Assembly (NCBI RefSeq): GCF_050920415.1 | Contig: NZ_CP169309.1 | From: Escherichia coli | GTDB lineage: Bacteria; Pseudomonadota; Gammaproteobacteria; Enterobacterales; Enterobacteriaceae | Length of the DNA stretch: 64,000 nucleotides | Direction: 5' to 3' (one strand) | Shown here: piece after piece, positions 16,371-17,175 of the stretch | How positions within the stretch are numbered: the first letter of the stretch is position 1 | Layout of the letters: each line of letters opens with the position of its first letter | Program-made: the position numbers and the translations under genes | Notes under the pieces: model-generated | The model's database searches: none | What the model was told of the DNA's origin: nothing | What the model saw: only the letters and a program-made list of their open reading frames with translations

Positions 16371-16943
16371 GACTTAATCCTTTATAAATAGGAAGAGCTA
16401 TGGATGAGGAAAATATAGGTTTGAATCTAATATTAATTCCGCTATGGACATTACCATAATCAAAGATAATTTGGCTTGTTATTAATATTTAATACTGATT
16501 AAGTAAAACTTAAAATATACATTTTAGTTATATATTTTGATGCATATATCTAGATATTTGTTGAATTTCGTTATGTATGATACATTTTTTGTATGGGTCA
16601 CGGTGAAAGAATGACCACTTATTGACAAAAGTTTACTTCTGATATTGTAAGGTGGTAGAGTATAATTATTATAACGAGTAGGAACGTAATAATCACGAAG
16701 ATATAATATATATCTGGTGGTGCTTATTAATATTAATTAGTGATGTTCCATCCGGGAATAGGATGCATTAATAGTCTTGGTTGTTTCTTTTTTAATCGAG
16801 TATGGTGTATAATACAACACTTGCTATGATCGAAATCATATACTTGATCCACAATTATGCGAGTATATGAATATATTCAACGATGGATATGTGAAATTTT
16901 AATGCTAAATGTTTAGTAATGTTAAATTATGAAGGTGAAAAGG

Positions 16944-17114
16944 ATGTTTATTGCCTGGTACTGGATTGTATTAATTGTTCTACTAGCTGGTGGCTATTTT
17001 CTTCATCTTAAACGTTACTGTAAAGCTTTTCGTCATGACAGAGATGCGCTGTTAGCTGCTCAAAGTAAATTAGATAAACGCTTCGATAAAGACGTATTTG
17101 AAAAGCATCAATAA
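16944..17114 (+). CDS. Hypothetical small single-pass membrane protein (about 56 aa)
   Basis: ORF with AAGG Shine-Dalgarno upstream of MFIAWYWIVLIVLLAGGYFL (one TM helix) then basic tail; sits in AT-rich intergenic region; coding status unverified. Confidence 0.3.
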   Translation: MFIAWYWIVLIVLLAGGYFLHLKRYCKAFRHDRDALLAAQSKLDKRFDKDVFEKHQ

Positions 17115-17130
17115 TACCTTTAATAACGAT

Positions 17131-17164
17131 ACAGATGTTGCCTTTAGCAATGGGCAACATCTGT
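17131..17164. terminator. Hairpin between convergent small ORF and zupT (possible bidirectional terminator)
   Basis: CAGATGTTGCCtttagcaatGGCAACATCTG perfect 11-bp stem; no strong T-run. Confidence 0.4.
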
Positions 17165-17175
17165 CATAATCGTCT

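What the first reader, a model, noticed from the sequence alone, without database searches (positions are those of the whole stretch)
16371..17175. AT-rich zupT-ygiL spacer with a candidate small membrane-protein gene
An ~800 bp very AT-rich region separates zupT from the fimbrial operon. It holds a 56-61 codon ORF with a plausible Shine-Dalgarno sequence and a single predicted TM helix (MFIAWYWIVLIVLLAGGYFLHLKRY...), followed by a perfect 11-bp-stem hairpin shared with the 3' end of convergent zupT. Small membrane proteins of this kind are often unannotated.
Basis: seen in the sequence. Interest (0 to 1): 0.3.

Follow-up and report, generated by a model that had tools for sequence, protein, structure and literature searches.

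The report
Known small membrane protein gene yqiD
The small ORF in the AT-rich gap next to zupT is real, but it is yqiD, a 56-residue E. coli protein already detected experimentally and annotated; its function is unknown, so the finding is correct but not new.

Summary
Window 16371-17175 has 30% G+C against 50.5% for the window. It contains a Shine-Dalgarno-preceded ORF (16944-17114, 56 codons) with an N-terminal transmembrane segment. A 12-bp perfect-stem hairpin lies between the stop codons of this ORF and convergent zupT.

The ORF is the positional ortholog of E. coli K-12 yqiD (b4756). That protein was detected by chromosomal SPA tagging in 2018 and was positive in a ribosome-profiling screen. 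RefSeq annotates the identical window sequence as a 56-aa "hypothetical protein".

The window carries the divergent ExPEC/B2-type allele. It is 65% identical in protein to K-12 YqiD, synonymous sites are saturated, and GC3 is 0.25. It lies directly beside the ExPEC-type yqi fimbrial operon instead of ribB.

In 30 species of Escherichia, Citrobacter, Salmonella and relatives the ORF is intact, uses the same ATG and SD, and is always convergent with zupT. Codons 1-38 are under strong purifying selection (pN/pS 0.11), while the C-terminal tail varies freely. The hairpin stem shows compensatory changes.

Function is unknown. The most likely role is a single-pass (N-out/C-in) inner-membrane modulator of a larger membrane protein.

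One unexplained extra: the same conserved palindrome, ATGAT-N4-ATCAT, lies upstream of both yqiD and zupT.

Verdict: already known, low interest.

The parts
16371..16824 (.). AT-rich upstream (regulatory) region of ygiL, the first gene of the ExPEC-type yqi (EA/I) chaperone-usher fimbrial operon. It is not part of the yqiD unit.
   Evidence: G+C is 0.277 for 16371-16943. The region is homologous to the same spacer in B2 strains (89%) and weakly to E. whittamii near ygiL. It has no homology to K-12, where ribB occupies this position. No Rfam family matches.
16825..16840 (+). Palindrome TATGATCGAAATCATA (ATGAT-N4-ATCAT). Conservation of the yqiD unit between genomes starts at this point.
   Evidence: It is near-invariant in 27 of the 31 sequences compared (window plus 30 loci), whatever lies upstream. 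Only two matches occur in the 64-kb window, against 0.06 expected.
16825..16943 (+). Conserved yqiD promoter/leader block. It includes the -35-like TTGATC (16844-16849), a conserved TGCSAnnATA (about 16858-16867), the block GCTAAATGTTTAGTAATGTTAAAT (16904-16927) and the SD GAAGGTG (16931-16937).
   Evidence: Multi-species alignment. The promoter hexamers were inferred by eye from the sequence and the conservation; the scan did not report this pair, and its hits are no more frequent than in shuffles. No convincing conserved RNA structure was found (-5 kcal/mol, 1 of 22 pairs with a compensatory change).
16944..17114 (+). yqiD coding sequence, 56 codons plus stop (ExPEC/B2-type allele): MFIAWYWIVLIVLLAGGYFLHLKRYCKAFRHDRDALLAAQSKLDKRFDKDVFEKHQ.
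16947..17003 (+). Codons 2-20: predicted transmembrane helix, followed by the conserved basic and charged juxtamembrane motif KRYC(K/R)AFR(Q/H)DRDALL (codons 23-37).
   Evidence: Hydropathy 2.16. The AF2 model is a single helix over residues 2-55, with pLDDT 85-89 over residues 1-20. Invariant columns are listed.
17126..17173 (.). Hairpin between the convergent stop codons of yqiD (17112-17114) and zupT (17176-17178). The 12-bp perfect stem is 17131-17142 with 17153-17164. It is the probable shared (bidirectional) terminator or 3'-end stabiliser.
   Evidence: z -6.8 and -5.7. In one search, 3 of 13 pairs keep pairing through changes on both sides. The simple terminator scan found none because the loop exceeds 8 nt and the T-tract is weak.
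17176..17949 (-). zupT (context): the convergent neighbour of yqiD in every genome examined.
15807..16370 (-). ygiL (context): major-subunit-like first gene of the yqi fimbrial operon, divergent from yqiD.
   Evidence: It is 61% identical to K-12 YgiL.

Best explanation
The 805-bp AT-rich spacer holds two separate things.

The left ~455 bp (16371-16824) is the upstream region of the divergently transcribed ExPEC-type yqi (EA/I) fimbrial operon.

The right ~350 bp (16825-17175) is a compact, self-contained transcription unit for yqiD. It consists of a conserved promoter/leader block that begins with a palindrome, an SD, a 56-codon ORF, and a stem-loop shared with the 3' end of convergent zupT. 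That stem-loop most likely terminates or stabilises both transcripts.

Shown here or in the literature:
- YqiD is a real, translated small protein (K-12 allele, literature).
- The ORF is conserved under purifying selection.
- The window carries the divergent B2-type allele.

Inferred:
- YqiD inserts into the inner membrane with its N-terminus outside and its C-terminus in the cytoplasm. The TM segment starts at residue 2 and is followed by a Lys/Arg cluster (positive-inside rule).
- Like other small single-pass proteins (AcrZ, MgtS, MgrB, PmrR), it acts by binding a larger membrane protein through the TM helix and the strongly conserved juxtamembrane helix KRYC(K/R)AFRxDRDALL. The variable charged tail would be a spacer.
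- ZupT is the leading candidate partner, but this is weakly supported.

Sub-confidences: identity as yqiD and a real gene, 0.95. Membrane-embedded modulator of another membrane protein, about 0.4. ZupT as that partner, about 0.1.
For: Identity. The ORF has the same position, orientation and length as K-12 yqiD (b4756). BLASTP gives 35/54 identical residues, E = 2e-25. RefSeq annotates the identical DNA as a 56-aa CDS. Source names for both alleles include 'Protein YqiD' and 'DUF4051 domain-containing protein'.

Translation. K-12 YqiD-SPA was detected by immunoblot, and its authors report it as positive in a tetracycline ribosome-profiling screen (PMC6001520).

Selection. The ORF is intact, 56-70 aa, with the same ATG and SD in all 30 species loci and the window. 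Pooled pN/pS is 0.107 for codons 1-38, with synonymous sites near saturation.

Synteny. yqiD is convergent with zupT in 31 of 31 loci, while the upstream neighbour varies.

Topology. Hydropathy is 2.16 for residues 2-20, followed by a net +4 segment. AF2 gives one continuous helix.

Hairpin. z = -6.8, with compensatory changes at 3 of 13 pairs.

Independent promoter. Homology between the different genome arrangements starts at 16825, downstream of the ribB terminator in K-12. A reporter study cloned K-12-type and B2-type yqiD upstream regions and found expression differences consistent with GWAS (bioRxiv 10.1101/2025.06.10.658842).
Against: No experiment addresses localisation, partners or phenotype of YqiD in any strain. 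Full-text search found only three E. coli papers that mention it.

Translation has been shown only for the K-12 allele, not for this one.

The His21/Cys26 pair is invariant in close relatives but not in the most distant family members, which weakens any metal-site idea.

Synteny with zupT among closely related Enterobacteriaceae may be simple inheritance. ZupT is far more widespread than YqiD, so YqiD cannot be required for ZupT to function.

At least one E. coli genome has lost most of yqiD to an IS1 insertion, so the gene is dispensable.

The hairpin lacks a good U-tract on the yqiD strand, and the consensus terminator scan did not call it.
Confidence: 0.9

Rival explanations
1. The ORF is a chance open frame in AT-rich DNA. 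Hydrophobic codons are common in AT-rich sequence, so it would not be a gene.
For: AT-rich intergenic DNA yields many short hydrophobic ORFs; the spacer holds several others of 20-39 codons. No Pfam or NCBIfam model reaches its cut-off.
Against: The ORF is intact with the same start and SD in 31 of 31 loci across at least six genera. pN/pS is 0.107 with saturated synonymous change. The K-12 ortholog protein was detected by immunoblot.
Confidence: 0.02
2. It is a type I toxin-like small hydrophobic peptide, comparable to Ibs, Ldr, Hok or TisB, kept silent by an antisense RNA.
For: It is about 50 aa with one hydrophobic helix and a conserved 5' leader. A sigma-70-like site on the opposite strand lies inside the leader (TTAACA-18-TAAAAT, 16925 to 16896). 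Real type I loci (two SIB RNAs) lie 10 kb away in the same window.
Against: The gene is single copy (median 1 place per genome). No Rfam antitoxin or sRNA family matches the locus. [quoted passage not shown] That is unlike a repressed toxin. The long charged C-terminal helix and the conserved RQDRDAL motif are not toxin-like. Promoter-like hits are no more frequent than in shuffles.
Confidence: 0.04
3. In this genome yqiD serves the adjacent fimbrial operon, for example as a membrane-bound regulator of yqi/EA-I expression, because the two are divergently arranged across one AT-rich control region.
For: The divergent arrangement occurs in the window, B2 strains, E. whittamii and E. albertii. 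The B2-type allele is as AT-rich (GC3 0.25) as the island beside it.
Against: In 17 of the 30 species loci the upstream neighbour is ribB-ubiK, and the operon sits elsewhere in K-12. The conserved yqiD promoter block is the same in both arrangements. The only invariant neighbour is zupT.
Confidence: 0.03
4. The B2-type allele is a functionally drifting copy. The N-terminal part is retained, but the gene was partly overwritten by recombination with foreign AT-rich DNA and may be losing function.
For: Against K-12, pS is 0.69 and pN 0.25. The tail has pN 0.53 against pS 0.66, and GC3 is 0.25 against 0.52. A recombinant allele exists (window-type N-terminus with K-12-type tail, P0017), as do frameshifted tails (P0025, P0026, P0034).
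Against: The window and B2 alleles differ by 4 synonymous and 3 non-synonymous changes, and the frame is intact. The exact protein is seen on at least 1000 contigs. The N-terminal 38 residues keep every family-invariant position. Tails vary between all genera, so a variable tail is the family norm.
Confidence: 0.08

Closest known systems
YqiD of E. coli K-12 (b4756, UniProt YQID_ECOLI; VanOrsdel et al. 2018, PMC6001520)
   Same: Positional ortholog: 56 aa, convergent with zupT, same start and SD, and the same conserved promoter/leader block. The N-terminal 38 residues are nearly the same, and a hairpin sits at the same place.
   Different: The proteins are only 65% identical, and the C-terminal 18 residues are unrelated. 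Synonymous sites are saturated and GC3 is 0.25 against 0.52. The upstream neighbour is the ExPEC-type yqi fimbrial operon instead of the ribB terminator. PGAP names this allele 'hypothetical protein' rather than YqiD.
Small single-pass inner-membrane regulators of E. coli (AcrZ-AcrB, MgtS-MgtA/PitA, MgrB-PhoQ, PmrR-LpxT, CydX); from general knowledge
   Same: Size of about 30-60 aa, one TM helix, no enzymatic domain, an independent small transcription unit, and narrow taxonomic range. This is the most likely way YqiD works.
   Different: There is no sequence similarity to any of them. No partner, inducing condition or phenotype is known for YqiD. This is an analogy, not membership.
Type I toxins (Ibs/Sib, Ldr/Rdl, Hok/Sok, TisB/IstR)
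   Same: A short hydrophobic peptide encoded in an intergenic region.
   Different: yqiD is single copy, has no antisense RNA family match, is detectably expressed in normal growth, and has a long charged cytoplasmic helix.
Bidirectional intrinsic terminators between convergent genes (general knowledge)
   Same: One G+C-containing stem-loop lies centred between two convergent stop codons, and its stem is conserved by compensatory change.
   Different: The loop is long (8-10 nt) and the U/A tracts are weak. The element is absent in species where the two stop codons are only 15-28 nt apart.
Yqi / ExPEC adhesin I fimbrial cluster (Antao et al. 2009, PMC2771359)
   Same: The operon to the left of the spacer (ygiL-yqiG-yqiH-yqiI) is of the ExPEC type. 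The left 455 bp of the spacer is its upstream region.
   Different: That paper does not describe yqiD or the spacer. K-12 carries a 61%-identical YgiL at a different intergenic site, between ubiK and glgS.

Membership tests
YqiD small-protein family (E. coli K-12 b4756; source name DUF4051) | Significant full-length sequence similarity to K-12 YqiD | tested here: met
   35/54 identical, E = 2e-25. The profile search recovers only this family: 23 clusters among 1.84 billion representatives.
YqiD small-protein family (E. coli K-12 b4756; source name DUF4051) | Genomic position: immediately downstream of zupT and convergent with it | tested here: met
   True for the window, K-12 and all 30 species loci.
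YqiD small-protein family (E. coli K-12 b4756; source name DUF4051) | Family-invariant residues (M1, I3, W5, R24, C26, A28, R30, D32, R33, D34, A35) and an N-terminal hydrophobic segment | tested here: met
   All are present in the window protein. Hydropathy is 2.16.
YqiD small-protein family (E. coli K-12 b4756; source name DUF4051) | Match to a curated family model (Pfam DUF4051 or NCBIfam) | tested here: not met
   No DUF4051 hit was found in the Pfam-A copy used, even at E <= 1, for any of 11 members. NCBIfam gave none. UniRef names show that such a model exists or existed, so this reflects the library, not the protein.
YqiD small-protein family (E. coli K-12 b4756; source name DUF4051) | The protein is actually synthesised | not testable with these tools
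   Shown for the K-12 allele only (SPA tag; reported positive in ribosome profiling).
Type I toxin-antitoxin | Overlapping or adjacent antisense sRNA antitoxin | tested here: not met
   No Rfam match in 16200-17400 at E <= 1. The SIB RNAs of the window are at 6450-6976.
Type I toxin-antitoxin | Toxicity or repression of translation under normal growth | not testable with these tools
   The literature shows a tagged protein readily detected in LB, which argues against this.
Intrinsic (Rho-independent) terminator | Stable G+C-containing stem-loop | tested here: met
   -27 kcal/mol, z = -6.8. Pairing is kept by compensatory changes.
Intrinsic (Rho-independent) terminator | U-rich tract directly 3' of the stem | tested here: inconclusive
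   The consensus scan found 0 terminators. The tail is CAUAAUCGUCUUU on the yqiD strand and AUCGUUAUUAAAGGUAUUAUU on the zupT strand. K-12 has a better tail (AUGUUGUUUUU).
MerE / DUF2621 (the only weak Pfam/NCBIfam hits) | Score above the curated cut-off | tested here: not met
   MerE scores 13.6 bits against a cut-off of 80 (NCBIfam) and 12.5 against 22.8 (Pfam). DUF2621 scores 13 against 27.7. These are hydrophobic-segment matches only.

The most novel reading that the evidence does not exclude
YqiD is a dedicated accessory or regulatory subunit of the metal importer ZupT. The convergent pair would be co-controlled by an unidentified dimeric transcription factor that recognises the palindrome ATGAT-N4-ATCAT. 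One copy of the palindrome lies upstream of each gene (16826-16839 and 18000-18013). These are the only two copies in 64 kb, both are conserved in 27 of the 31 sequences compared, and both are missing in the Kosakonia/Phytobacter clade. If true, the supposedly constitutive zupT would have a hidden regulator and a hidden small subunit.
Probability: 0.08. Interest if true: 0.55.

Novelty: already known. Interest (0 to 1): 0.13.

Why it matters
As a gene discovery it does not matter, because yqiD has been in the K-12 annotation since 2018. The analysis adds modest value in four ways.

- It links the PGAP "hypothetical protein" found in about 990 ExPEC-type genomes to yqiD.
- It fixes the start codon at 16944.
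- It shows a narrow Enterobacteriaceae family with a strongly constrained TM and juxtamembrane core and a free tail.
- It gives a concrete, testable lead for an orphan small protein: invariant pairing with zupT, plus the same conserved palindrome upstream of both genes.

Tried and rejected
- Pfam, NCBIfam and Rfam scans gave nothing above threshold.
- A conserved RNA structure in the yqiD leader was tested with RNAalifold. The result was -5 kcal/mol, mostly G-U pairs, with 1 of 22 pairs showing a compensatory change, so it was rejected.
- The 61-codon start (ATG 16929) was rejected because that ATG is absent from other lineages.
- A metal site formed by His21 and Cys26 was considered. It was downgraded because distant members lack His21 and some lack or shift the Cys.
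- I compared the palindrome from memory with the FNR, CRP, Fur, Zur, NikR, ArgR, Cra, CusR and IHF consensus sequences. It has CRP/FNR-like TGA-N6-TCA geometry and Fur-box half-sites at the wrong spacing. No assignment is justified.
- A PhoP- or ArcA-like direct repeat in the leader (TGTTTA-N4-TGTTAA) has the wrong spacing: 10 bp rather than 11.
- Supplementary tables of the Onc112/retapamulin profiling preprint and of the NAD-RNA paper were not available as text.
- A linker-fused ZupT-YqiD AlphaFold run was considered and not done. The tool returns no contacts or PAE, and the paired alignment would be shallow, so the result could not be decisive.
- P0071, a 125-aa ZupT(1-70)-YqiD-like fusion from a metagenome, was set aside as a probable assembly or gene-call artefact, because the two genes are convergent.

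Full report
WHAT IS THERE

The window is E. coli chromosome. Region 16371-17175 (805 bp) lies between the start of ygiL (15807-16370, - strand), the first gene of a chaperone-usher fimbrial operon, and the stop codon of zupT (17176-17949, - strand). Its G+C is 0.301, against 0.505 for the whole window, and falls to 0.235 in 200-nt windows.

The region contains an ORF with two possible starts: ATG 16929 (61 aa) and ATG 16944 (56 aa). Both end at 17112-17114. The 61-nt gap between this stop and the zupT stop holds a hairpin with a perfect 12-bp stem (17131-17142 with 17153-17164) and an outer 5-bp stem. Its energy is -27 kcal/mol, z = -6.8 against dinucleotide shuffles, and the other strand gives z = -5.7.

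WHAT IT IS

The identical DNA in RefSeq genome NZ_CP169399.1 carries a 56-aa CDS at exactly 16944-17114, named "hypothetical protein" WP_001354975.1. K-12 MG1655 has a 56-codon gene at the same place, immediately downstream of and convergent with zupT. That gene is yqiD (b4756, 3183381-3183551). The two proteins are 35/54 identical, E = 2e-25. Similarity is concentrated in residues 1-38, and the tails are unrelated.

VanOrsdel et al. 2018 named yqiD (PMC6001520). They inserted a chromosomal SPA tag and detected the protein by immunoblot in LB. They also noted that it was among the unidentified positives of a tetracycline ribosome-profiling screen. Source names for both alleles include "Protein YqiD" and "DUF4051 domain-containing protein". 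The Pfam-A and NCBIfam copies available here give no hit above threshold, and Rfam finds nothing in the region. The candidate gene is therefore real, already known and already annotated.

A pattern scan of one genome per GTDB species returned 30 loci. They come from Escherichia (coli, albertii, whittamii and unnamed species), many Citrobacter, Salmonella arizonae and diarizonae, Intestinirhabdus, an Enterobacter, Kosakonia and Phytobacter.

- In all 30 loci the ORF is intact (56-70 aa) and starts at the ATG that aligns with 16944.
- That ATG is preceded by AAGGGTAAAAGG-type SD sequences.
- The upstream ATG 16929 is not conserved, so the 56-codon form is the gene.
- For codons 1-38, pooled pN/pS is 0.107, with synonymous sites near saturation (pS 0.66).
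- The tail (codons 39 to the end) varies freely in sequence and length. Frameshifted and recombinant tails exist in E. coli.
- A profile search of 1.84 billion representative proteins found only 23 clusters, so the family is small and confined to this group.
- Family-invariant positions are M1, I3, W5, R24, C26, A28, R30, D32, R33, D34 and A35. In the most distant members His21 is lost and the Cys is shifted or absent.

ANATOMY OF THE TRANSCRIPTION UNIT

yqiD is convergent with zupT in all 31 loci, but its upstream neighbour varies. It is ribB-ubiK in 17 loci and a fimbrial operon in the window, E. whittamii, E. albertii and one Citrobacter. In the remaining loci neither ribB-ubiK nor a YgiL homolog was found upstream; two of these are cut too short upstream to show a neighbour.

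Homology between these arrangements begins abruptly at a near-invariant palindrome, TATGATCRAAATCATA (window 16825-16840). It continues through a -35-like TTGATC, a conserved TGCSAnnATA, the block GCTAAATGTTTAGTAATGTTAAAT (16904-16927) and the SD. yqiD therefore has its own promoter and leader of about 120 nt. In K-12 this lies downstream of the ribB terminator.

The exact promoter hexamers and TSS are inferred, not shown. The consensus scan is no better than shuffles. No convincing leader RNA structure exists.

The hairpin is present in Escherichia, several Citrobacter and Salmonella. It is absent where the two stop codons are only 15-28 nt apart. Across ten sequences, 3 of its 13 pairs keep pairing through changes on both sides (U-A to A-U in the K-12 lineage, U-A to C-G in the window/B2 lineage). 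This shows selection on the structure. It most likely acts as a shared terminator or 3'-end stabiliser. That is an inference, because the U-tract is weak and the simple scan does not call it.

THE REST OF THE SPACER

Positions 16371-16824 are homologous only to genomes with the same arrangement: 89% to B2 strains, and weak similarity to E. whittamii near ygiL. This is the upstream region of the ExPEC-type yqi (EA/I) fimbrial cluster described by Antao et al. 2009 (PMC2771359).

Gene order in the window is zupT, yqiD | ygiL-yqiG-yqiH-yqiI | ribB (with its FMN riboswitch), ubiK, glgS. In K-12 it is zupT, yqiD, ribB, ubiK | ygiL-yqiGHI | glgS. The two YgiL proteins are only 61% identical. Two diverged versions of the operon thus occupy two neighbouring intergenic sites. 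AT-rich upstream regions of chaperone-usher operons are typically H-NS-silenced. That is general knowledge and was not tested here.

THE ALLELE

Of 5,426 complete E. coli genomes, 5,425 match the yqiD region. About 992 carry the window/B2-type allele (95-100% identity over 16900-17175). About 4,429 carry the K-12 type, which aligns only over 16904-17051 at about 82% identity.

- Window against K-12 yqiD: pS 0.69, pN 0.25, GC3 0.25 against 0.52.
- Adjacent zupT: pS 0.17, pN 0.
- Over codons 1-38, the B2-type allele is about equally distant (75-77% nucleotide identity) from K-12-type Escherichia, Citrobacter and Salmonella. The K-12 type is 92-97% identical to E. albertii and E. whittamii.

The B2-type allele therefore looks like an old or imported AT-rich replacement that still keeps every invariant residue. 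A recent preprint cloned the K-12-type and B2-type upstream regions as "yqiD-WT" and "yqiD-MT" reporters; the primer sequences match the two arrangements. It reported expression differences consistent with its GWAS (10.1101/2025.06.10.658842). At least one genome has lost most of yqiD to IS1, so the gene is dispensable.

HOW IT MOST LIKELY WORKS

Shown: the protein is made (K-12 allele), and its N-terminal 38 residues are under strong constraint.

Inferred:
- Residues 2-20 (hydropathy 2.16) form a TM helix starting at the very N-terminus.
- The following HLKRYCKAFRHDR segment (net +4) places the C-terminus in the cytoplasm by the positive-inside rule.
- AF2 models one continuous helix over residues 2-55, confident only in the TM part (pLDDT 85-89; 54-70 beyond residue 20).

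By analogy with AcrZ, MgtS, MgrB and PmrR (general knowledge, no homology), the most likely mechanism is binding and modulation of a larger inner-membrane protein. Binding would use the TM helix and the conserved juxtamembrane motif, with the variable tail acting as a spacer (confidence about 0.4).

ZupT is the obvious candidate partner because it is the only invariant neighbour. Synteny among close relatives is weak evidence, however, and ZupT occurs widely without YqiD (about 0.1).

AN UNEXPLAINED EXTRA

The pattern ATGAT-N4-ATCAT occurs exactly twice in the 64-kb window, against 0.06 expected from shuffles. One copy is at 16826-16839, upstream of yqiD. The other is at 18000-18013, in the zupT/ygiD intergenic region about 57 nt before the zupT ATG.

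- Both copies are conserved in position in 27 of the 31 sequences compared, with invariant half-sites and a variable N4.
- Both are absent in Kosakonia/Phytobacter.
- About 190 kb of fetched loci contain only one further match.

This suggests a shared operator. Against that, Reg-Seq classed the zupT promoter as having an RNAP site only, and zupT is reported to be constitutive (PMC7567609). In addition, the two sites do not sit at the same distance from plausible core-promoter elements. I could not assign a known regulator. The geometry is CRP/FNR-like (TGA-N6-TCA), but this comparison is from memory only.

VERDICT

The rivals are disfavoured: a chance ORF, a type I toxin, a fimbrial accessory and a decaying allele. 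Novelty: already known. Interest is low (0.13). The only lead of wider interest is the possible regulatory or functional coupling of YqiD and ZupT.

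Noticed in passing
window 18000-18013 (and 16826-16839): A second copy of the palindrome ATGAT-N4-ATCAT lies in the zupT/ygiD divergent intergenic region, inside a longer conserved block AGATAAC-C-ATGATnnnnATCAT-CA-GTTATTTTGA. These are the only two copies in the window (0.06 expected). Both are conserved in 27 of the 31 sequences compared. Reg-Seq saw no transcription-factor footprint at zupT.
   Followed up: partly
window 18012 to 17959, - strand: A short ORF upstream of zup[18 protein letters not shown], ends just before the zupT SD. Its first codons (MM-x-IISYF) are conserved across genera without wobble variation, so the conservation looks nucleic-acid-level (promoter or operator) rather than coding.
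   Followed up: partly
L030, L032-L034, just upstream of the zupT SD: Enterobacter sp. kpr-6, Kosakonia and Phytobacter carry an extra insert of about 55 nt with a Fur-box-like AATGAGAAnnATTATCAT directly before the zupT SD. It is absent from Escherichia, Citrobacter and Salmonella. zupT may be Fur-family regulated in those genera.
   Followed up: no
window 11402-16370 versus K-12 (L004 5415-11697): The yqi fimbrial operon sits between yqiD and ribB in the window and in B2 strains, E. whittamii and E. albertii. In K-12 it sits between ubiK and glgS, and the YgiL proteins are only 61% identical. In 9 other species loci neither ribB-ubiK nor a YgiL homolog lies upstream of yqiD (two of these loci are cut short), so this gap looks like an insertion hot spot.
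   Followed up: partly
window 16944-17114 versus 17176-17949: There is a sharp mosaic boundary at the hairpin and zupT stop. yqiD differs from K-12 at saturating synonymous levels (pS 0.69, GC3 0.25). zupT next to it has pS 0.17 and no amino-acid change. zupT itself is unusually diverged at silent sites between E. coli lineages (pS 0.17-0.24).
   Followed up: partly
L003 (NZ_CM172721.1) 2288-3150: In one B2-like genome an IS1 insertion has removed ygiL, yqiG and all but the last ~90 nt of the yqiD coding sequence (plus the downstream hairpin). This is a natural yqiD deletion.
   Followed up: no
protein P0071 (metagenome, 125 aa): A predicted protein joins ZupT residues 1-70 to a YqiD-like C-terminal part. 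Because the genes are convergent, this is probably an assembly or gene-call artefact, but it was not checked.
   Followed up: no
window 6450-6599, 6826-6976, 10443-10591, 44134-44197, 60907-60983: Known RNA elements elsewhere in the window: two SIB antitoxin RNAs, the FMN riboswitch before ribB, ES173 sRNA and naRNA4. All are expected for this E. coli region.
   Followed up: no
window 16371-17175: The exact DNA haplotype of the spacer is rare among complete genomes: 2 of 5,426 match at >=99% and about 990 at 80-90%. Yet the exact YqiD protein sequence is recorded on at least 1000 contigs in the larger collection. The discrepancy was not resolved.
   Followed up: no
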